Positions 2,721-28,903 of a stretch of DNA of 64,000 nt are shown here, piece after piece. Position numbers and translations under genes: made by a program. Every line of letters begins with the position of its first letter. Within the stretch, counting starts at the first letter, position 1. Source of the stretch: Prorocentrum cordatum (taxonomy: Eukaryota); assembly GCA_963575745.1 (NCBI GenBank), contig CAUYUJ010000281.1, forward strand, positions 558,001-622,000. The letters run 5' to 3'. Below the pieces are notes generated by a model that was not told the origin of the DNA, searched no databases, and was given only the letters and a program-made list of their open reading frames with translations.

Positions 2721-3368
2721 CCCCTTCCCCCCTCGGGGTAGGGGGAGGGTTCGCATGTGGCCCCCCTATGGGCGAGGAGGCCGAATCAAGCCTGCCTCGC
2801 TCTCTCCGTCTCGCGAGCGGCCAGAACACTGGGAATGATGTCAGGAAATGATTGGCTCGTGATGAATTGCGGGATTCCCAGGATCCCAAGCGGCCCTCGT
2901 TTCTGCAGCCTGGGGGCCATCAGGACATGTGGGAAATCCTGAAAATCTTGGAACGTATCGTTATCATGACCTCTTGCTCATCCTCTGAGGAGGAAGATGA
3001 GGATGATGGTGATGGTGATGGTGATGGTGATGGTGATGGTGATGATGATGATGATGATGAGGAGGAGGAGGAGGAGGAGGAGGAGGAGGATGATGAGGAG
3101 GAGGAGGAGGAGAAGGAGGAGGAGGAGCGCAAAGTCGCAGGCAGACATCGTCTGGGGGGGATCGCGCCGCGCTGTGCGGCTCTCGCACGGTCGCTGAGCC
3201 CGCGGCGCGCGGGCCGCGCTCTCGGCAACGCGCCGGGCGCGAGCTTCCACAGACACACACGATCCTGCTACAGGCATCGCAGGGCAAGTCTGACGAGGGG
3301 TAACGACGAGGTGCAGTAGACACACACGCACACACGATCCTGCTACAGACGACGACGACGACGACGAC

Positions 3369-3412
3369 GAGGAGGAGGAGGAGGAGGAGGAGGAGGAGGA
3401 GGAAGAGGACGA
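3369..3412. repeat. Left copy of the 44-bp target-site duplication of the LINE
   Basis: (GAG)11-GAAGAGGACGA, identical to 8959-9002. Confidence 0.8.
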
Positions 3413-3638
3413 GGAGGAGGAGGAGCAAAGCAAAGCAAAGAACTATCGGACCCAATGTCTCTCCCTTGCAGCTTGGAGCAACTGAAATGGATCTAAGTGA
3501 CTGCGGTGAGTCAGACTTCCAATCGGAGGAGCCCTGTCGGCGGGGAACGCTCAAGCCTGACGACGGCCCCAAAGGAGGAGAATCCCGTGGGCGTCGTATG
3601 GCACCACCCCCCGAATTACAGGAAAACCCCGTCGGACA

Positions 3639-6600
3639 CTAGGCAGGACCCCGTGGTCCCACCCCTCTCGCTCTACGGCTCGCGGGCTTCGCACGAGCCC
3701 GGGCAATGAAAACAGTTCTATCGTCCTGGACGCTTCCCCTCAAAACAAAGCGATTCTCGGCCGCCCCAGCAGCCACAGAGATCCCAGGAGCACCAGGCCC
3801 CTGGCTCGGAGGTCCCGAGGCAGGGGAGGGAAGCAGTCCACGACTTTGCAATTCAAGGAACCGTTCACTAGCACGGAAACGCTCACTACCACGGAACGCA
3901 GGCGGAGGGGGGACGGGAGGCCGAGATCGAGCAGGAGGAGGTCGAGGGGCCACGGAGCGACCGAGGGCCGAGGCCGAGGACCCAGGACGGACCCCGAGAG
4001 GAAAACTAGAGTCTTGAATTCGAGGCTCAGATCTGGATGGAATCAGAGGAGCAGGCAGCCTAGCCGTAGGAGCCGTCGCGCCTGTCGGTAACGTCAAAGC
4101 CCCAGCAGAAGTAGGTAAGGCGGACGATCCACTCCCCGTACTGGTCCCCATACTCGGCCGAGTATCAGTATGCAGATTACCACCCATCAGAAGAAATGCT
4201 GACGACGGACGACCCCCATCAGAAACACCCACTCCAGCTTCAGGACACTGGGTCACAGCAGCAGGTACAAAACTCTGAATACCGTCACTCATCAGCGGCA
4301 ACGAACTAGGACCACCAGCAGTATCAGGATGCATAGACAGTTGGGCATCACCAACCCGCACATCAGAAGCACTCAGCCCACTAGCAGCACGCAGACTTAC
4401 TGCTTCCCCTCCAGCTGATCCAGAAGGCGTTGGGCATCCCGCTCCAGGGCGCCCTTGGGCGCCGCCCCATACTTCCTGGCGCCGCCGATGGATTGGAAGT
4501 ACTTCACCAGGGCGCCCTCGAGATACTGATGGCTGTGATCCACCGCGAACGTCACCCGCGCCATGGCCTTCTGGTTGTCTTGCTTGCGAGTCGGCCGCAC
4601 CCTGCACGCCCTCACTGACGTCGCCACCTGATCGATACTGTTCTTCATGATGAAGTCGTTCCAATACTGCTCCAGCGACTTGCCGATGTCGGGCGGAGGG
4701 CCGGCCTGACCGATGGCGCGCAAAAGGGCGACCCAAACATGAACGAAAGGAGGACCCATGGGGTCCTGCACATTGTCTGCCTTCCTCCGCTTCACCTCTT
4801 GATGATAAGCAACGCCTGCGGCCTTGGCGGCCTTGATAACTGCATGCTCGGCGCCCACCAAGAAAGTAACGAAAACGACGCCGCACAGCTCTCGAAGTTC
4901 TGCAGCGCTGCTGAGGGACAACCGCGCCAGGATGGCCACCAGGGCCTTGAGAACACCGCCGCCTTTGCCTCCTCCCTCCTTCTTGGCCTCCTCTACGACC
5001 TCCACGAGCGCCCGCCGCTTGCGACTGCCTGGGACTTCCTCGGCGGCGGCAGCGGGCTGAGCCAGCATCCACGACGGAGTCGCGTCCATCATCTGGCGGT
5101 GGGAGAGGAAGAGGGTCAAGGTGTGATCTGAGATGCACCTGCAATTCAGACAAAACGCCTGCAGAGAACTCGCACATAGGACACTTAAGAGAAGCTGGGC
5201 TCCGAATCTCAGCCAAATTACGAGTGCAATTCCGAGGACACCTACCTTTGACCATACTGCGAGACAAGTGACGTCGGGCACTCTCGAGATGGGCGAAGGT
5301 GGCAGGGCACGCGCAGCACTGGTTAGTCACGGTCACGACATTAGCTAAGGCCCGAAACCCATGATGGGAAATAAGATGGTTATGTAGAGCACGTCTATCT
5401 GGTAAGGCCCGCCCACATACCTCCCCTTTCTCATCCTTAATCATGCAAGTAAACATAGCATCAACATCGACCCCGTCCCCCGCGACTGTACCAGTAGTGA
5501 TCGACGTCCCAGGAGGAGGAATATTCACTGACAAAGCAGCGGCACGTAACTGACGCACATCAATACTATAAAAAACCTCAGCCCAATCAGGATCAGCAAA
5601 CAATAAGAAATACCTCCCGTCAAGCTGTTCCAGGAGAGAAGCCCCTTCATCGATGACATATAGGCTATCAATATCTGCGCACATGCGCTGAGTCCACGGA
5701 GACACCACCCCCTCCAGCCTTCCCCTCGTATCAACGTGATAATGATCACTGCCGAAGGCTCCAAACAGACACGCCAGAAGTTGACGATGGGCCCCAGGGA
5801 CTTTTGAAACACTCTGCCAAAGTCGAAGACGACGAATTCTGATTTCCAGATCAAGGGGTACAAGCCGCCACCATCGGAGGACAGCAGCAGAGGAGAGACT
5901 TTTAGGGTGAACGCCAGAGGTCCAATCTACAGCTTGACCGAGCATCGCCTTCCGAGCATACTGGGCTACAACATGCTGCAGACGCTGGACTTGTTGCACA
6001 CTCGGGAGAAACGCCTCGACCCCAGAGAGAGCCACATTATATATTTTTGAGATCAATAAACAGCGTCGAAGTCGGTGCGGGACGCCCCGAAGAGTCCAGA
6101 ACCCACCCATCTGATACCAGGCCTGCCGAACCGCGCTGATACGAGACTTAAGTTCAAACTCGTAGCTAGTCGGTACCGAAGACATCCAGGATCCCAGACT
6201 CTTAGCACATTGGACAGGCTTCCCAGGAAATACAAGACGTCCCGCCCGAACATCACGAAGACAAGTAGCCGCCCCAGGCCCCTGAACGTGCAACAATGTG
6301 TCCTGCTTGGTTAGATTCTGCGCAAAGCCAACCTCGGCAAGAAGCTCGTCTAGGCACTGATTGGACAGCCGGCTTAAAGTGGCCAACTCGTGCGGCTCAG
6401 CACCTCGCGGAAGCACAAGCTTCTTGGTGAGATCGTCAGCATACTTCGTAAGCGAGCAGTTAACAGGTTCACGTTCATACTCAAGCCGGCCATCTCGAAA
6501 AAGTGGGAGCCGAGCACAGAGAACAGAGGCCTGGGGGTCAAACGCGGCGTGGGAGGCCAGCCACTTCTGCACAGGCGGGACGAAGGTGCGCAAAAACGTA

Positions 6601-8891
6601 TTGACTGCAAACTCATCCCCCATCAATCCTCCACTCCGCGGTGCAATGTTGACATCCTCCTCATGCCCCCTCAACGTGATGACAGCACTCCTAAGACGCT
6701 GAAGGCCGAACCGCACAGACGATCCCAAAAATAAATCTCGAATTGCAGACTCCATTGGCGGTCGTGCACTGCTGGCGAAAGCATTCGTCAAATCGTGGGC
6801 GTTAGTCAAAAAGGTGTATCCATGACGATGTAGCCACTCCCCAGTGATACCCTGAACCATGAGCGCACATTCACGACGTCGGTGCCTCAGAAACCCATGA
6901 TCCTGGTCAGTACCCTGCAGCTGGCCACGCTGGGCCATCACCCCCGACGTCCAGGCCTTCCCAAAGGGGTCCAGGAGGTGGATCCAGCGAGTTTTTCCAT
7001 CGGGCCGCGGAAGAGGAGCACCCCGACTACGATTCCAGAAGATCGGAATTTGCCCACAGCATCGAATCCGAGCAAGTCCCCAGACGACCAAGTCTCTGAA
7101 GTTCTCCAAAGAGTGCGGGCATGCAACGGCACCCACTCCAGTTGGCAGCTGGCTCAGGTTCTTCTTCGGAAAAAGCGACAGCCACCACAGCTCTAAAGGA
7201 GGAGACCACTCTGGGGCAGCTCGACGCTTGCCAGCACGCGTCAAGCGAGACATAATAGCATGCAGATCTCGACGGGCAGCTCGAAAGTCCTCTTCAGATG
7301 GCTGCACTCTGGGAGGAGCCCGAGAAATCCACTCAGACCGCCAATCATGCCAGTTATCAACAGATACCGCCGCCATGCCTCCAAGAGGCCCAGGCTGAGC
7401 AAACAGGCGCTTAAGGTCAGCAGCGTCATCAACCGTCCCTCGAATCGTCGCGTAATCGCGCTTCTTCGGACCGAATCTCGAACATGCCGCTCGCCTGGCC
7501 AATCGGGTCGCTTCAGCTAAACGACGGTGCTTCCAATGTTCTCTCACCTCCTCCAACAGCGCCTCCCTCCACTCCTCCAAAGCACGCCTACGAAACAGTC
7601 TGTGCAGTCGTGACACATCTCTGAGACGATGCTGAACTTGCACAACGTGCTCTTCGGCGACCTCTGGAAGCATAAGCCTAAGTTGTCTACGCTGCTCCAG
7701 CAGCTGTTCTCGCTCAAGTCTATAGGCTTTTTGCTGTATACTCTCAGGATTGCCGAAAACCTCCTGGCCAACCTCAATCAGTACAGTATTAATCTGTTCA
7801 AAGAAATCATCAGCCGTAGACTTGTCCAACAAAGCAGTTAAAACATTCTCATCAGCCTCCAGCCTGCGGTGTAAAGCCTGCACAAATTCAGCACGCCGTT
7901 CGCCACGACGCAGACACCGCATGAGCAGATCACGATCCCAAACATGAGGTTTAGCACGAGGGGTGAAGGTAGAATACGGGGGCGCATATGTAGTCTTAAT
8001 CATAATGAGGAGGTGGTCAGCAGGTTTCGCAGAGGGGATAATTTGCAGCTCACGACTGACACGTCGAAGTGGACTGCTGTGCGACATCTGATCAACAAGC
8101 GGGCGCGGTAGACACAAAGAATCAATCGTGCTCGTCCCTCCTGTGTTGCCGTAGAAGGTCGGCACTCGCTCCCGCGCACAGTTAGCAGCACACAAATCGT
8201 GATTCGCTAGTACCTCCCCCACCGCAATCCCCGCATAGTGTGCCTGACTGGCCGTGGACGACGGAACGACATATTTCTCGTCATAAGCCCACCCTCGCCC
8301 AGCAACATGCACCAGTCCCAGCCCGTCATTCAAATCCATACCCACGACGGGAGTAGACCGAGCAGGGAGGGCACATAATTGTTCGGCTAGCCACGAAGTC
8401 AGTTTATCACAGGTACGCTGATACCCACTCATCACCGCAAGATCCCTAGGTCGAGGAGGATAGTACAACGCAATACAGGCCAGGTCCCAGGAACCATTTT
8501 TTACTCGAACAAGCAGCCCGCGTCCGTGGAGTTCTGGTGGGGGGACAGCCACTCGAACGATGTGTGCCTCCGAGAACCTTCGACCCAGGACGACCGAGCA
8601 TCCACACGAGTTGGTGACAAGTGGGCCCACGCGATACCCTGCTTCAATGACGACACGAGAACGATGCAAAGCTGGCATGTACACCTGTCGGCGCCTCACG
8701 GGGACGCCTGCCGCAGCCTTCACCTTCGTGCCGACGAGGGTCAGCACGTCAAACGATGAGGTCCTGCGGCAGATCTCCTCCATTCGATCCTCACTGTTCG
8801 CCCGCAACGGGTTGTAGCTGCCAGCGACCAAGGGGAACATGAGAAAGGGCAGCCAGCAGCCCCTCACACAGTGGACAAGAAGAGAAAACAT
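3639..8891 (-). CDS. LINE polyprotein: apurinic-like endonuclease, reverse transcriptase, C2H2 zinc fingers and a low-complexity tail (1750 aa from the first ATG inside the element)
   Basis: APE motifs SYN, LYYPP, GMDLN, PTFY, TIDS, ADH (about 7990-8830); RT motifs HDLTNAF, GGLMGD, YADD (6432-6443), KSLG; zinc fingers C..C GRALPDRRALHNHLISHH and CPMC..LQVHLRSH (about 5120-5450). The track start at 9068 lies outside the element. Confidence 0.9.
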   Translation of the reverse strand: MFSLLVHCVRGCWLPFLMFPLVAGSYNPLRANSEDRMEEICRRTSSFDVLTLVGTKVKAAAGVPVRRRQVYMPALHRSRVVIEAGYRVGPLVTNSCGCSVVLGRRFSEAHIVRVAVPPPELHGRGLLVRVKNGSWDLACIALYYPPRPRDLAVMSGYQRTCDKLTSWLAEQLCALPARSTPVVGMDLNDGLGLVHVAGRGWAYDEKYVVPSSTASQAHYAGIAVGEVLANHDLCAANCARERVPTFYGNTGGTSTIDSLCLPRPLVDQMSHSSPLRRVSRELQIIPSAKPADHLLIMIKTTYAPPYSTFTPRAKPHVWDRDLLMRCLRRGERRAEFVQALHRRLEADENVLTALLDKSTADDFFEQINTVLIEVGQEVFGNPESIQQKAYRLEREQLLEQRRQLRLMLPEVAEEHVVQVQHRLRDVSRLHRLFRRRALEEWREALLEEVREHWKHRRLAEATRLARRAACSRFGPKKRDYATIRGTVDDAADLKRLFAQPGPLGGMAAVSVDNWHDWRSEWISRAPPRVQPSEEDFRAARRDLHAIMSRLTRAGKRRAAPEWSPPLELWWLSLFPKKNLSQLPTGVGAVACPHSLENFRDLVVWGLARIRCCGQIPIFWNRSRGAPLPRPDGKTRWIHLLDPFGKAWTSGVMAQRGQLQGTDQDHGFLRHRRRECALMVQGITGEWLHRHGYTFLTNAHDLTNAFASSARPPMESAIRDLFLGSSVRFGLQRLRSAVITLRGHEEDVNIAPRSGGLMGDEFAVNTFLRTFVPPVQKWLASHAAFDPQASVLCARLPLFRDGRLEYEREPVNCSLTKYADDLTKKLVLPRGAEPHELATLSRLSNQCLDELLAEVGFAQNLTKQDTLLHVQGPGAATCLRDVRAGRLVFPGKPVQCAKSLGSWMSSVPTSYEFELKSRISAVRQAWYQMGGFWTLRGVPHRLRRCLLISKIYNVALSGVEAFLPSVQQVQRLQHVVAQYARKAMLGQAVDWTSGVHPKSLSSAAVLRWWRLVPLDLEIRIRRLRLWQSVSKVPGAHRQLLACLFGAFGSDHYHVDTRGRLEGVVSPWTQRMCADIDSLYVIDEGASLLEQLDGRYFLLFADPDWAEVFYSIDVRQLRAAALSVNIPPPGTSITTGTVAGDGVDVDAMFTCMIKDEKGEVCGRALPDRRALHNHLISHHGFRALANVVTVTNQCCACPATFAHLESARRHLSRSMVKGRCPRNCTRNLAEIRSPASLKCPMCEFSAGVLSELQVHLRSHLDPLPLPPPDDGRDSVVDAGSARCRRRGSPRQSQAAGARGGRRGGQEGGRRQRRRCSQGPGGHPGAVVPQQRCRTSRAVRRRFRYFLGGRRACSYQGRQGRRRCLSSRGEAEEGRQCAGPHGSSFRSCLGRPFARHRSGRPSARHRQVAGAVLERLHHEEQYRSGGDVSEGVQGAADSQARQPEGHGAGDVRGGSQPSVSRGRPGEVLPIHRRRQEVWGGAQGRPGAGCPTPSGSAGGEAVSLRAASGLSASDVRVGDAQLSMHPDTAGGPSSLPLMSDGIQSFVPAAVTQCPEAGVGVSDGGRPSSAFLLMGGNLHTDTRPSMGTSTGSGSSALPTSAGALTLPTGATAPTARLPAPLIPSRSEPRIQDSSFPLGVRPGSSASALGRSVAPRPPPARSRPPVPPPPAFRGSERFRASERFLELQSRGLLPSPASGPPSQGPGAPGISVAAGAAENRFVLRGSVQDDRTVFIARARAKPASRRARGVGPRGPA
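4397..5092 (-). CDS. Nested second ORF of the LINE, 231 aa, unknown function, in a different frame inside the pol ORF
   Basis: Starts ATGATG right after the last zinc finger; codons end mostly in G/C; reads as a globular protein (LKALVAILARLSL..., MGPPFVHVWVALL..., GAAPKGALERDAQRLL), whereas the overlapping pol frame is Arg/Gly-rich shadow sequence. Confidence 0.75.
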   Translation of the reverse strand: MMDATPSWMLAQPAAAAEEVPGSRKRRALVEVVEEAKKEGGGKGGGVLKALVAILARLSLSSAAELRELCGVVFVTFLVGAEHAVIKAAKAAGVAYHQEVKRRKADNVQDPMGPPFVHVWVALLRAIGQAGPPPDIGKSLEQYWNDFIMKNSIDQVATSVRACRVRPTRKQDNQKAMARVTFAVDHSHQYLEGALVKYFQSIGGARKYGAAPKGALERDAQRLLDQLEGKQ

Positions 8892-8958
8892 GAATGTGGC
8901 GTGGGCTACGTTATACTGAATACGCCCCTGTGACGTTGGGTCGGAGCCGAGGGGGCTG
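8892..8958 (-). ncRNA. Candidate structured 5' leader of the LINE (possible HDV-like ribozyme or Ingi/L1Tc-like signature)
   Basis: CAGCCCCCTCGGCTCCGACCCAACGTCACAGGGGCGTATTCAGTATAACGTAGCCCACGCC: possible pairings CCCCT/AGGGG, GAC/GTC around CCAAC, CGT/ACG and GGC/GCC; several stems are short. Confidence 0.3.
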
Positions 8959-9002
8959 GAGGAGGAGGAGGAGGAGGAGGAGGAGGAGGAGGAAGAGGAC
9001 GA
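8959..9002. repeat. Right copy of the 44-bp target-site duplication of the LINE
   Basis: (GAG)11-GAAGAGGACGA, identical to 3369-3412. Confidence 0.8.
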
Positions 9003-10795
9003 CGGGGGGAGGAGGCCGACGAGGGCGCGCAGCCGGAAGTATAGGGGCGGGGACAGCGAAGAGCGCAAGTAGGATGCTTCCGCCGATGAGCGCAGCCTGT
9101 CAGCCTGTCAGCTCCTGGAGCGCAGGGCCGATTACAGGCACGGGCGAGGACACAAGAGAAGGACAAAGAGGACAAGCGCCCCTGCTCCTGCTCCTCCTCC
9201 TCCTGCCTCCTCCTCCCCTCCTCCTCCCCCATCCTCCTCCTCCTCCTCCTCCTCCTCCTTCTCCTCCTCCTCCTCCTCCTCCTCCTCCCTCCCTCCCCTC
9301 CCTCCCTCCCTCCCTCCCTCCCTCCCTCCCTCCTCCCCTCCCTCCCTCCCTCCTCCCTCCTCCTCTCCCTCCCTCCCCCTCCTCCCCTCCTCCTCCTCCT
9401 CCTCCTCCTCCTCCTCCTCCTCCTCCTCCTCCTCCTCCTCCTCCTCCTCCCCCTCCCTCCTCGACCTCGGCCGCTACGCTCAGGGCCAGGCGCCGAGCCT
9501 GCCCCAAGGCCGCACGAGCAGCGCGGCACTGCAGCGAGAACCGTGGGAGAGGAGCAGCAGCACAGGCCCCCGGAGAAGCGAACTCCGATCCTCCTTCTCC
9601 TCCTCCTCCTCCCTCCTCCTCCTCCTCCTCCTCCTCCTCCTCCTCCTCCTCCTCCTCCTCCTCCCCTCCTCCTCCTCCCTCTCCTCCTCCTCCTCCTCCT
9701 CCTCCTCCTCCTCCTCCTCCTCCCCTCCTCCTCCTCTCCTCCTCCTCCTCCTCTCTCCTCCCTCCTCCCCTCCTCCTCGCCTTCCTCCTCCTCCTCCTCC
9801 TCCTCCTCCTCCTCCTCTTCCTCCTCCCCCTCCTCCTCCTCCTCGCCTCCTCCTCCGCCTCCCCCTCCCTCCTCGACCTCGCCCGTTACGCTCGGGGGCC
9901 AGGCCTGCCCCAGGCTGCACCGAGCAGCGCAGCACTGCGGCGAGAGCCGTGGGAGGAGCAGCAGCACAGGCTGCCCGGAGAAGACGAAATCCGATCTGGT
10001 CCAATCCTCCACCATGCCCTCCTCCTCCTCCTCCGCCTCCTCTTCCTCTCCAATCCAAGTCTCCTCCTCCTCCTCCACCATGTCCTCCTCCTCCTCCTCC
10101 GCCTCCTCCGCCTCCTCCGCCTCCTCCGCCTCCTCCGCCTCCTCCTCCTCCTCCTCCTCCTCCTCCTCCTCCTCCTCCTCCTCCTCTCCAATCCAAGTCA
10201 ACTCCTCCTCGTCCTCGGCATCCTGGCGCTCCTCATCTACCTCTGCCTCTTTCCTCCTCCTCCTCCTCCTCCTCCTCCTCCTCCTCCTGCGCAGCCTCCT
10301 ACTCGGGAATCTTCAGACCCGGGTGAATCCAGACCTGGGTCAGTCAGGCCTTGCACAATCCTGCAAGGTCCTGTTCCCAAAGCGGGGTCAATGCGAAGGA
10401 ACCTGAATGATCCTGCAGGATCCTGCACCCCAGTCCGGGTCAATGCAACCATGCCCCTGCAGAATCGTGCAAGATCGGGCGCTCTGGCTAAACCCCGCTT
10501 GCAATGACCCCCGTCTCAAGGCTGCCGACCTACTCTCCCTCTCGTGGCGCCAGTAAGATGGCGAGGAGGATGTGGCTTCCCGCGGCTCTCCACGGGAGCC
10601 CCCACGGCGAAGACGAGGAGGACAACGATGACGAGGAGGACACTGCGGAAGAGGAGGGCGAGCCGGACGAGGAAGACGAGCAGGGCGAGGAACAAGACGT
10701 CGTCGTCGTCGCCGTTGCCGTCGCTGCTGTAGCCGCCGCCGCCGTCGTCGGCGCCGTCGCCGCCGTCGTCGCCGCCGTCTGTCGCCGCCGCGAAG

Positions 10796-28637: not shown

Positions 28638-28903
28638 GACCTTGGCTCAGAGCGCGGCCCCTCTCGCTCAGCACGCCCTCTCGCAGCCGCGGCCGTCCAG
28701 TGACGCATTGCCTTGCGCCAGACTGGCTACGGACGTGTGTGTGTGTGTGTGTGTGAGGGAGAGAGAGTTCGTTTGCGGATGCTCGTTCTGCATTACCTCT
28801 GCTGCGTCAGCTGGTCCGGACCGCGAGCCGCTCTTGCGCTGGACCTGAGCTGCGCCGCGCCGCTGCGCGCGTGGCCGCGACGCCAAACAGTGCGCCCTTG
28901 CGG

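What the first reader, a model, noticed from the sequence alone, without database searches (positions are those of the whole stretch)
5093..5125. Splice-acceptor-like signal directly before the nested ORF start codon
Seen (minus strand): cTTGAc-cctcttcctctcccaccgcCAG|ATGATG, that is a branch-point-like motif, a pyrimidine tract and CAG abutting the ATG. Established: dinoflagellate mRNAs receive a spliced leader at AG acceptors. Inference: the element may make a subgenomic mRNA for ORF2 by SL trans-splicing or cis-splicing, explaining how a downstream ORF is translated.
Basis: partly seen in the sequence, partly recalled or inferred. Interest (0 to 1): 0.75.

Follow-up and report, generated by a model that had tools for sequence, protein, structure and literature searches.

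The report
Splice-acceptor-like tract before nested LINE gene
A pyrimidine-rich stretch ending in CAG sits directly before the start of a real second gene hidden inside a dinoflagellate jumping gene, and it may be where the cell's spliced leader is added to make a separate messenger, but no RNA data could be obtained to test this.

Summary
On the minus strand, 5125..5093 reads branch-like TTGAC, a 21-nt tract with 19 pyrimidines, then CAG, directly followed by ATGATG (5092..5087). It is the only such tract+AG in the element's 5.25-kb sense strand, and the only one of 25 in the window that abuts an ATG.

The context is a roughly 5.5-kb LINE-like retroelement of a Prorocentrum-like dinoflagellate. 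Its long ORF (8891..3639) carries an endonuclease-like region, RT motifs with YADD and three C2H2 fingers.

ORF2 (5092..4397, 231 aa, +1 frame) is a real gene:
- It has 856 relatives at 50% clustering, mostly stand-alone proteins of 200-280 aa.
- Relatives share a conserved start followed by a P-x-W motif.
- The AlphaFold model is confident (pLDDT 92) and matches no Pfam family or solved fold.

The long ORF's frame stays open across all of ORF2 and beyond, with frame-specific avoidance of stop codons. ORF2 therefore appears truly nested and needs its own route to translation.

A spliced-leader acceptor in the AUG-free 85 nt upstream is the most natural route, and 5094/5093 is the best of five AGs. 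This is inference only. No RNA run was listed, no DNA of relatives was reachable, the tract also encodes a Pro/Leu linker, and an AG abutting the ATG is not visibly conserved in relatives.

The parts
3441..8957 (-). Approximate extent of the LINE-like retroelement. It lies between (TCC)n-type microsatellites on both sides, in the same orientation.
   Evidence: Read directly: TCC runs at about 9010..8958 and 3440..3350. The borders are approximate because there is only one copy in the window.
3639..8891 (-). Long ORF (ORF1) from the first ATG to TAG at 3641..3639. The frame is open from 9068.
   Evidence: In the ESM Atlas (language-model protein clusters) the nearest cluster scores 0.96 with 189 of 256 shared features. 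That cluster is 1179 aa and carries RVT_1 in 100%, zf-C2H2 in 52% and Exo_endo_phos in 37% of members (a lead, not a test).
8004..8840 (-). Endonuclease-like N-terminal region, from GSYNPLRANSEDR through GMDLND to PADH.
   Evidence: One search gives the coordinates. Pfam Exo_endo_phos_2 matches only at E=0.16. Pieces are conserved at 59-67% identity in P0007.
6186..6992 (-). Reverse-transcriptase motif block: D-x-x-N-A-F at 6812..6771, YADD at 6446..6429, and SLG at 6206..6186.
   Evidence: Read; coordinates. The motif consensus is recalled. Pfam RVT_1 gave no match.
5121..5453 (-). Three C2H2-type zinc fingers at 5453..5361, 5318..5256 and 5189..5121.
   Evidence: Pfam zf-C2H2_4 at E=9e-6 and zf-C2H2 at E=0.0027, both below the curated cut-offs. 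A PDB zinc-finger match at E=0.14.
5093..5125 (-). The finding itself: TTGAC, a 21-nt pyrimidine tract (5115..5095) and CAG (5095..5093). In ORF1 the same letters encode HLDPLPLPPPD.
4397..5092 (-). ORF2: 231 codons plus TAA, in the +1 frame, nested in ORF1.
5093..5176 (-). AUG-free stretch before ORF2's start. It holds five candidate AG acceptors: 5170, 5160 (AGG), 5140 (AGG), 5129 and 5094.
   Evidence: The last upstream ATG is at 5177.
4395..4400 (-). GTAAGT (donor-like hexamer) overlapping ORF2's TAA stop codon.
   Evidence: Its function is untested.
3642..4396 (-). Tail of the ORF1 frame after ORF2. It is Ser/Pro/Ala/Gly-rich and shows three-base periodicity (45% T at codon position 3).
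   Evidence: 1 of 3000 dinucleotide shuffles is open in this frame, and the other two frames have 8 and 20 stops. There is a weak match of 3749..3687 to the tail of P0007 (E=0.003 in a small search).

Best explanation
The tract and CAG lie inside the coding sequence of a LINE-like retroelement's long ORF, just after its third zinc finger. They abut the genuine start codon of a second gene, ORF2, that is nested in the +1 frame.

Scanning ribosomes cannot reach an AUG 3.8 kb inside another ORF. ORF2 is therefore most likely translated from a separate, shorter mRNA. In a dinoflagellate, the 5' end of such an mRNA would be made by trans-splicing the 22-nt spliced leader onto an AG in the AUG-free 85 nt before the start codon. 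Of the five AGs there, the one at 5094/5093 is the best candidate, because it is the first AG after the only strong pyrimidine tract of the element. The resulting mRNA would have the leader alone as its 5' UTR. Unspliced full-length RNA would still serve for ORF1 and as the template for copying.

Shown here:
- the sequence signal and its rarity;
- that ORF2 is real, stand-alone and linked to the element;
- frame-specific avoidance of stop codons in the ORF1 frame across ORF2.

Inferred: that any splicing happens, and at which AG. I put about 0.45 on leader addition in this 85-nt stretch and about 0.3 on position 5093 itself.
For: 1. ORF2 is real.
- It is 45-58% identical to three other proteins. 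Two are annotated as Prorocentrum cordatum proteins; the third comes from an ENA contig and carries no name.
- A profile search finds 856 representatives at E<=1e-3, 230 at <=1e-10 and 20 at <=1e-30. Of the 148 listed besides the two query members, 93 are 200-299 aa long.
- AlphaFold2 with 72 sequences gives pLDDT 92.3 and pTM 0.81.

2. It has its own start. Of 151 relatives examined, 50 have a Met within 10 residues before a P-x-W/F motif, as in the window's MMDATPSW. In 32 of those 50 that Met is residue 1.

3. It belongs to the element. P0007-P0010, four isoforms of one P. cordatum locus, join pieces of the ORF1 endonuclease region (59-67% identity) to ORF2 (53% identity).

4. It is nested.
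- The ORF1 frame runs on for 484 codons past ORF2's ATG.
- In ORF2, 0 of the 54 codons that precede an AA/AG/GA-starting codon end in T, whereas 38 of the other codons do.
- Only 4 of 20000 synonymous shuffles leave the ORF1 frame free of stops. The third frame has 7 stops against 6.7 expected.
- The ORF1 body shows no such avoidance (86 observed against 82.5 expected).
- 0 of 111 other open frames of at least 200 codons in the window show this frame-specific pattern.

5. The signal is rare. It is 1 of 25 tract+AG sites in 128 kb, the only one followed by ATG, and the only one in the element.

6. Upstream of the start Met, 18 relatives are enriched in F/L/S/P, the residues a pyrimidine tract encodes. 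The count is 56 of 142 (0.39), against 0.21 in the protein bodies and 0.295 from the codon table (p=0.007).

7. Dinoflagellate leaders are added at AG (PMC2488372, passages). In P. cordatum 20.1% of gene models had transcripts with the leader (PMC10666404, passages).

8. Earlier notes of this scan on the same genome describe LINEs whose DNA copies begin with the leader. These are unchecked leads.
Against: - No RNA evidence of any kind was obtained.
- The tract has another sufficient reason to exist: it encodes the Pro/Leu-rich stretch LDPLPLPPPDD after the last zinc finger of ORF1.
- In Amphidinium, no acceptor feature beyond AG could be described, the choice of AG was flexible, and the word pyrimidine does not occur in that paper. 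A metazoan-style tract therefore has no proven predictive value here.
- 79.7% of cis acceptors are AGG in what I read as the P. cordatum column of a flattened table. This site is AGA, while two other AGs in the AUG-free stretch (5160, 5140) are AGG.
- Among 18 relatives with residues upstream of the start Met, the residue at -1 is K, Q or E (the only residues compatible with NAG|ATG) in 6. I estimate about 3 from typical frequencies of these residues, so an abutting AG is not clearly conserved.
- None of the 148 relatives held contains a peptide that the leader would encode. This is a weak test, because the frame that leads into this ATG has a stop inside the leader.
- The P0007-P0010 gene models read straight through the equivalent junction, though that copy is decayed.
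- The stop-avoidance shuffles overstate significance in this GC-rich window. The 111 other long open frames have 357 stops against 700 expected, and 6 are as extreme on the simple test.
Confidence: 0.45

Rival explanations
1. The tract is a coding by-product plus coincidence. It is simply the codons of a Pro/Leu-rich linker at the end of the zinc-finger region, and its CAG happens to abut ORF2's ATG. ORF2 is expressed some other way. Candidates are another AG further upstream, an internal promoter, 5'-truncated or solo copies that place ORF2 first on their transcript, or internal ribosome entry with the tract as a protein-binding site.
For: - The tract reads LDPLPLPPPDD in the ORF1 frame.
- No acceptor consensus beyond AG is known in a dinoflagellate.
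- The site is AGA rather than the AGG reported for 79.7% of cis acceptors.
- An abutting AG is compatible with only 6 of 18 relatives.
- Stand-alone gene models for relatives P0005 and P0006 on large contigs fit ORF2-only copies, which ordinary 5' truncation of LINEs would produce.
Against: - It is the only strong tract+AG in 5.25 kb and it lands exactly on the start codon.
- Relatives show a modest excess of pyrimidine-type residues at the same place.
- The 141 nt around the start show no unusual RNA structure that would speak for a structured entry site (z=0.14).
Confidence: 0.3
2. Cis-splicing, as in retroviral env mRNA. A donor near the 5' end of the element is joined to the acceptor at 5093, removing most of ORF1 and giving a subgenomic mRNA that carries the element's own 5' end.
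For: - The site fits the general 3' splice-site pattern of tract plus CAG.
- A GTAAGT at 4400..4395 overlaps ORF2's stop, so ORF2 looks exon-like, bounded by acceptor-like and donor-like signals.
- The P0007-P0010 models join distant parts of a related copy.
- Earlier notes of this scan report intron-bearing retroelements in this genome (unchecked leads).
Against: - No donor could be singled out. Several GT-type candidates occur in the first 250 nt by eye, none of them tested.
- The site lacks the G after AG reported for 79.7% of cis acceptors.
- ORF2's stop right after LEGK is shared by the window and P0004-P0006, which speaks against regular use of the GTAAGT donor.
Confidence: 0.08
3. Programmed +1 ribosomal frameshift, or a frameshift mutation in this copy. 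ORF2 would be made as a C-terminal fusion to the endonuclease-RT-zinc-finger protein, and the ATG would not be used as a start.
For: - ORF2 is in the +1 frame of ORF1.
- The ORF2 frame is open for 63 codons upstream of the ATG.
- The nearest ESM Atlas (language-model protein clusters) cluster for ORF1 is 1179 aa, so ORF1-type proteins usually end near here (a lead).
Against: - Most listed relatives are stand-alone proteins of 200-299 aa (93 of 148). Where the P-x-W motif was found, a Met lies 1-10 residues before its P (50 of 151 examined).
- Among the 148 representatives listed apart from the two query members there are 10 of 300 aa or more. The only ORF1-ORF2 joins seen are P0007-P0010, a patchwork gene model.
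- No significant RNA structure lies nearby.
- The ORF1 frame itself continues and looks selected to stay open.
Confidence: 0.07

Closest known systems
Spliced-leader trans-splicing acceptors of dinoflagellate mRNAs (Bachvaroff and Place 2008, PMC2488372, passages read; DinoSL as given in the abstract of PMC2606063, search listing only)
   Same: There is an AG directly upstream of a start codon, in an organism whose hits are Prorocentrum proteins. A worn copy of the leader is present elsewhere in the window at 28712..28732.
   Different: Known acceptors lie in intergenic or 5' UTR sequence of host genes. This one would lie 3.8 kb inside the coding region of a retroelement and would have to be used only part of the time. 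No junction has been seen, and a pyrimidine tract is not an established feature of dinoflagellate acceptors.
Subgenomic spliced mRNAs of retroviruses and env-bearing LTR retrotransposons (recalled)
   Same: A downstream gene of a retroelement would be expressed from a processed, shorter RNA, while the full-length RNA serves for the polymerase and as template.
   Different: Those elements use cis-splicing from their own 5' donor, and they are LTR elements. Here the element is LINE-like, the proposed partner is the host's leader, and the downstream gene is nested in another frame of the polymerase ORF.
Bicistronic LINEs: human L1 with unconventional ORF2 translation, and silkworm SART1 with stop-start coupling (recalled; L1 described as bicistronic in the abstract of PMC4091050, search listing)
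   Same: A non-LTR element has two proteins and faces the problem of translating the second one.
   Different: In those elements the small protein comes first and the RT ORF second, and the ORFs do not overlap or overlap by only a few bases. Here the RT ORF comes first and the small ORF lies wholly inside its extended frame. No ORF1 stop lies near ORF2's start, so coupling by termination and reinitiation does not apply to this copy.
Overprinted (dual-coding) genes of viruses (recalled)
   Same: Two frames are open over 232 codons. One product is a folded, conserved protein. The other is Arg/Gly-rich (20% R, 19% G) and looks disordered. Synonymous sites of the folded gene avoid stops in the other frame.
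   Different: I know of no such arrangement in a LINE. My two literature searches found none, but they were narrow.
Dinoflagellate LINEs that start with a DNA copy of the leader
   Same: Same genome, same class of element, and insertion in (TCC)n repeats.
   Different: Those notes concern the leader at the 5' end of the whole element. This element has no leader copy at its 5' end at up to 3 mismatches, and the question here is an internal acceptor.

Membership tests
Dinoflagellate spliced-leader acceptor site | AG dinucleotide at the junction, upstream of the start codon, with no intervening AUG | tested here: met
   AG lies at 5094/5093 and the ATG at 5092. The last upstream ATG is at 5177. 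Four other AGs share this property.
Dinoflagellate spliced-leader acceptor site | RNA molecules in which the 22-nt leader is joined to the base after the AG | not testable with these tools
   No RNA run was listed for 4300..5600, so no reads could be laid. The metagenome and viral collections held no relative.
Dinoflagellate spliced-leader acceptor site | Conservation of the AG in related copies | tested here: inconclusive
   Only protein sequences of relatives were available. A residue compatible with NAG before the start Met (K/Q/E) occurs in 6 of 18. An AG a few bases further upstream cannot be seen in protein.
Spliceosomal 3' splice site (cis) of Prorocentrum cordatum | AG followed by G (AGG), reported for 79.7% of acceptors | tested here: not met
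   The site is CAG|A. The figure comes from PMC10666404, from a flattened table seen in passages; I read its first data column as P. cordatum.
Spliceosomal 3' splice site (general eukaryotic pattern, recalled) | Branch-like YTNAY 18-40 nt upstream, a pyrimidine tract, and YAG | tested here: met
   TTGAC has its A 23 nt before the G of the AG. The tract has 19 of 21 pyrimidines and is followed by CAG. The branch motif alone is not beyond chance.
APE-type non-LTR retrotransposon (LINE) | Reverse-transcriptase domain with motifs in canonical order, including YxDD | tested here: inconclusive
   By eye, D-x-x-N-A-F, G-x-x-G-D, YADD, N-L-T-K and S-L-G occur in order (consensus recalled). The nearest ESM Atlas (language-model protein clusters) clusters all carry RVT_1, with a top score of 0.96. 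However, Pfam RVT_1 gave no match, PDB sequence search found no RT, and a single-sequence fold failed (pLDDT 36).
APE-type non-LTR retrotransposon (LINE) | N-terminal endonuclease/exonuclease/phosphatase domain | tested here: inconclusive
   Pfam Exo_endo_phos_2 matches at E=0.16, below the cut-off. The ESM Atlas clusters carry Exo_endo_phos. GMDLND- and PADH-type motifs are seen (consensus recalled).
APE-type non-LTR retrotransposon (LINE) | Several diverged copies in the genome | tested here: met
   There is a second locus in P. cordatum with ORF1 pieces at 59-67% identity and ORF2 at 53%. The window holds only one copy.
Overlapping (dual-coding) gene pair | Both frames open, with selection visible at synonymous sites of one against stops in the other | tested here: met
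   There are 0 stops against about 7 expected; 4 of 20000 synonymous shuffles do as well. The third frame is as expected, the ORF1 body control is normal, and 0 of 111 control frames show the pattern. Caveat: the simple shuffle test is anticonservative in this window, and only one copy could be examined.
Programmed +1 frameshift site | A fused product and no independent start | tested here: not met
   Relatives are mostly stand-alone with a Met shortly before the conserved P-x-W motif. There is no unusual RNA structure.

The most novel reading that the evidence does not exclude
A non-LTR retrotransposon of dinoflagellates carries a second gene for a protein of unknown fold and family. The gene lies wholly nested in the +1 frame of the C-terminal extension of its reverse-transcriptase ORF, and both frames are kept open by selection. 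The element borrows the host's spliced-leader machinery at an internal acceptor, directly at the nested gene's AUG, to make a subgenomic mRNA. This would be a retrovirus-like expression strategy reached by trans-splicing in a LINE.
Probability: 0.3. Interest if true: 0.8.

Novelty: new variant of a known kind. Interest (0 to 1): 0.55.

Why it matters
How retroelements express more than one protein from one RNA is a classic problem with only a few known solutions. An internal spliced-leader acceptor used part of the time would be a new solution for LINEs. It would also show a mobile element exploiting the most distinctive step of dinoflagellate mRNA maturation.

Whether or not the acceptor is used, three results stand on their own:
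- The nested ORF2 belongs to a large family (856 representatives at 50% clustering) with no name.
- That family has a confident predicted fold with no solved counterpart.
- Synonymous sites of ORF2 seem constrained by the overlapping polymerase frame.

Gene annotation of dinoflagellate genomes would miss or mis-join such pairs, as the patchwork models P0007-P0010 suggest.

Tried and rejected
- RNA evidence: the look-up of sequencing runs with kind rna on 4300..5600 listed no RNA holder. Its cap is one search, so read laying could not be used.
- Own genome: none is held for this window.
- DNA of relatives: the search for related loci with the ORF2 alignment in metagenome contigs gave 61 pattern matches but none confirmed. 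A degenerate pattern for the invariant R-A-C-R-V/I-R-P-T-R-K block gave 8 metagenome loci and 1 viral locus. All were chance matches: the best tblastn E-value was 0.002, over 48 residues.
- Relatives of ORF1: a word-index search with residues 1000-1345 found none among 8000 candidates. This is weak, because only lengths of 994-3166 aa were searched. A PDB sequence search found only weak zinc fingers. AlphaFold2 on the RT part without an alignment failed (pLDDT 36.2), so I did not search with that model.
- Fold of ORF2: Foldseek against the PDB gave no match at E<=0.001. VIA-align (in-house structure aligner) against 48161 chains gave a best Z of 6.5 over about 50 aligned residues, which is only helical hairpins. 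The ESM Atlas (language-model protein clusters) top score was 0.84. Pfam gave no shared family among 72 members.
- Leader copy at the element's 5' end: none at up to 3 mismatches. A 7-base match to part of the leader at 8910..8904 is within chance.
- Leader-encoded peptides in relatives: none in the 148 held.
- Rfam on 3300..9100: nothing at E<=1.
- RNA structure around the start: not different from shuffles.
- Stop-start coupling: rejected for this copy, because ORF1 has no stop near 5092. A TGA in the third frame overlaps the ATG (ATGA), but using it would need an undocumented frameshift inside the tract.
- Site-specific insertion of a LINE just upstream of a host ORF2 gene: rejected, because ORF1 has neither a stop nor a tail before ORF2, and because the two are linked at a second locus.
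- Earlier findings of this scan: look-ups by place, sequence and words gave nothing for this element.
Full report
**1. The observation**

On the minus strand, 5125..5093 reads CACACCTTGACCCTCTTCCTCTCCCACCGCCAG and is followed at once by ATGATG at 5092..5087.

TTGAC fits the loose branch consensus (recalled), with its A 23 nt before the G of the AG. A motif that loose is expected by chance in about a third of such windows, so I give it no weight.

The tract is a different matter. It has 19 pyrimidines in 21 nt and is directly followed by AG. The whole window, both strands, holds 25 such sites among 8646 AGs. Only this one is followed by ATG, and it is the only one in the 5252-nt sense strand of the element. 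A relaxed rule (at least 16 of 20) adds one more site at 4034. The signal is therefore real and rarer than chance would give, with the usual caution for a test made after the fact.

**2. What surrounds it**

Source organism:
- The window is GC-rich, and no whole genome is held for it.
- Its relatives are proteins annotated as Prorocentrum cordatum.
- A worn copy of the dinoflagellate leader lies at 28712..28732, with 3 mismatches and 0 expected by chance.
- A dinoflagellate source is therefore well founded.

The long ORF (ORF1):
- On the minus strand an open frame runs from 9068 to the TAG at 3641..3639. Its first ATG is at 8891.
- It contains an endonuclease-like N-terminal part. Pfam Exo_endo_phos_2 matches only at E=0.16.
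- It has a block with reverse-transcriptase motifs in the usual order, including YADD at 6446..6429. I read these by eye against a recalled consensus.
- It has three C2H2-type fingers at 5453..5121 (Pfam E=9e-6 and 0.0027, below the curated cut-offs).
- Pfam RVT_1 does not match, and the PDB sequence search finds no RT.
- In the ESM Atlas (language-model protein clusters), all ten best named clusters share a family or clan with the best of them. The top cluster scores 0.96 with 189 of 256 shared features. It is 1179 aa, with RVT_1 in 100%, zf-C2H2 in 52% and Exo_endo_phos in 37% of members.
- I take the element to be a very divergent APE-type LINE, and I mark that membership as not formally proven.

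Boundaries:
- In its own orientation the element sits between (TCC)n runs at about 9010..8958 and 3440..3350. Its extent is therefore roughly 8957..3441.
- Only one copy is in the window.

**3. ORF2 is a real gene with its own start**

- The 231-codon frame from 5092 to 4397 has relatives at 58%, 54% and 45% identity. It also matches a 198-aa protein identical to the window's own sequence.
- A profile search of 1.84 billion representatives finds 856 at E<=1e-3, 230 at <=1e-10 and 20 at <=1e-30. Of the 148 listed besides the two query members, 93 are 200-299 aa long and 135 start with Met.
- With 72 sequences AlphaFold2 gives a confident alpha/beta model (pLDDT 92.3, pTM 0.81).
- The model matches nothing in the PDB by Foldseek (no match at E<=0.001) or by VIA-align (in-house structure aligner; best Z 6.5 over about 50 residues).
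- No Pfam family is shared by the 72 members.
- In 50 of 151 relatives a Met lies within 10 residues before a P-x-W/F motif, as in MMDATPSW here. In 32 of these 50 it is the first residue.

That pattern speaks for a true initiation codon and against ORF2 being merely a domain of a larger protein.

ORF2 belongs to the element. Four isoforms of one P. cordatum gene model (P0007-P0010) combine pieces of the ORF1 endonuclease region (59-67% identity) with ORF2 (53%).

**4. ORF2 is nested, and the outer frame seems to be kept open**

ORF2 is in the +1 frame of ORF1, and ORF1 does not stop. It runs on for 484 codons, across all of ORF2 and a further 252 codons.

Evidence within ORF2:
- None of the 54 codons that precede a codon starting AA, AG or GA ends in T, whereas 38 of the remaining codons do.
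- About 7 stops would be expected in the ORF1 frame, and there are none.
- Only 4 of 20000 shuffles of synonymous codons, with the protein kept, do as well.
- The third frame has 7 stops against 6.7 expected.

Controls:
- The body of ORF1 shows no avoidance in either alternative frame (86 against 82.5, and 36 against 38.5).
- A wider control was sobering. The 111 other open frames of at least 200 codons in this GC-rich, repeat-rich window have 357 off-frame stops against 700 expected. Six are as extreme as ORF2 on the simple test, so such shuffles overstate significance here.
- None of the 111, however, shows the frame-specific pattern of ORF2, with one alternative frame empty and the other normal. 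The eight coding-like controls (GC2 below 0.5) are close to expectation.

The tail:
- The stretch 4396..3642 is open in the ORF1 frame in only 1 of 3000 dinucleotide shuffles.
- The other two frames there have 8 and 20 stops.
- It shows three-base periodicity, with 45% T at codon position 3.

The ORF1-frame product is 20% Arg and 19% Gly over ORF2, and Ser/Pro/Ala/Gly-rich after it. I rate true dual coding as probable, about three in four. With one copy in hand it is not shown.

**5. What this means for the finding**

An AUG that lies 3.8 kb inside another translated frame cannot be reached by scanning, so ORF2 needs its own access.

In a dinoflagellate the obvious route is a separate mRNA whose 5' end is made by the spliced leader. 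That requires an AG upstream of the AUG with no other AUG in between. The last upstream ATG is at 5177, and five AGs follow it: 5170, 5160, 5140, 5129 and 5094. The one at 5094/5093 is the first AG after the only strong pyrimidine tract of the element. This fits how acceptors are chosen in other trans-splicing organisms (recalled).

There is also a GTAAGT at 4400..4395 overlapping ORF2's stop, so ORF2 looks like an exon framed by acceptor-like and donor-like signals. Since the window and P0004-P0006 all end right after LEGK, I doubt that this donor is used regularly.

**6. What speaks against the reading**

- The tract is also plain coding sequence: LDPLPLPPPDD, a linker after the last finger.
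- In Amphidinium the acceptor is clearly an AG, but no other consensus could be described and the choice of AG is flexible (PMC2488372, passages). A metazoan-looking tract thus has no proven meaning in this group.
- For cis-splicing, 79.7% of acceptors are AGG in what I read as the P. cordatum column of a flattened table (PMC10666404, passages). This site is AGA, while 5160 and 5140 are AGG.
- At the protein level, 18 relatives have residues before their start Met. The eight residues upstream are enriched in F, L, S and P, the residues a pyrimidine tract encodes: 56 of 142, against 0.21 in the protein bodies and 0.295 from the codon table (p=0.007). But the residue at -1 is K, Q or E, as NAG|ATG would require, in only 6 of 18. 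A pyrimidine-rich approach to the start may be a family trait; an abutting AG is not.
- None of the 148 relatives held carries a leader-encoded peptide. This is a weak test.
- The P0007-P0010 models read through the junction.
- There is no unusual RNA structure around the start (z=0.14) and no Rfam match. This also leaves a structured entry site or frameshift stimulator without support.

**7. What could not be done**

- No RNA run was listed for the stretch, so no reads could be laid.
- The metagenome and viral collections gave no true relative.
- The word-index search for the end of ORF1 found nothing.

**8. Verdict**

| Reading | Probability |
|---|---|
| Leader addition somewhere in 5176..5093 | about 0.45 |
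| Leader addition at 5093 itself | about 0.3 |
| Coding by-product, with ORF2 expressed another way | 0.3 |
| Cis-splicing to this acceptor | 0.08 |
| +1 frameshift fusion | 0.07 |

The more solid result of this follow-up is the context. A LINE-like element carries a nested second gene from a large, unnamed family with an unmatched predicted fold, and there are signs of selection for dual coding. My two literature searches on related themes found no description of such an arrangement, but they were narrow and do not show that it is absent from print.

Noticed in passing
window 28712-28732 (-): A 21-base match to the dinoflagellate spliced leader with 3 mismatches; 0 of 100 shuffles gave any match. 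It is probably the relic leader of a retroposed gene.
   Followed up: no
window 9185-9590 and 9591-9996: A tandem duplication of about 405 bp at 85% identity, just upstream of the element and embedded in long (GGA)n-type microsatellites.
   Followed up: no
window 4395-4400 (-): A perfect GTAAGT overlaps the TAA stop of ORF2, so the nested gene is framed by acceptor-like and donor-like signals. Whether it is used is unknown.
   Followed up: partly
window 4397-5092 (-), model m41925b430467: The ORF2 protein family (856 representatives at 50% clustering) folds confidently (pLDDT 92) into an alpha/beta domain. It has no Pfam family and no convincing match among solved structures. Conserved blocks are GPPF-x-H-x-W, R-x-C-R-x-R-x-T-R-K and G-x-A-P-x-G-x-L-E-R.
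   Followed up: partly
window 3642-4396 (-): After ORF2 the ORF1 frame continues for 252 codons with 45% T at third positions and a Ser/Pro/Ala/Gly-rich product. A short stretch (3749..3687) weakly resembles the tail of the P. cordatum model P0007 (E=0.003 in a small search).
   Followed up: partly
window 8784-8840 (-): In the endonuclease-like region both this copy and P0007 read L-V-G-T/A-K where APE-type endonucleases usually have a catalytic Glu (motif recalled). The nuclease may be atypical.
   Followed up: no
protein P0057 (960 aa): One relative has three ORF2-like stretches behind an N-terminus that looks like a nucleotidyltransferase. It could be a fused gene model or a tandem array.
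   Followed up: no
window, whole: Long open frames in two or three overlapping frames are common here: 115 stop-to-stop frames of at least 200 codons. Off-frame stops run at about half the number expected from synonymous shuffles, so ORF-based arguments in this genome need local controls.
   Followed up: yes
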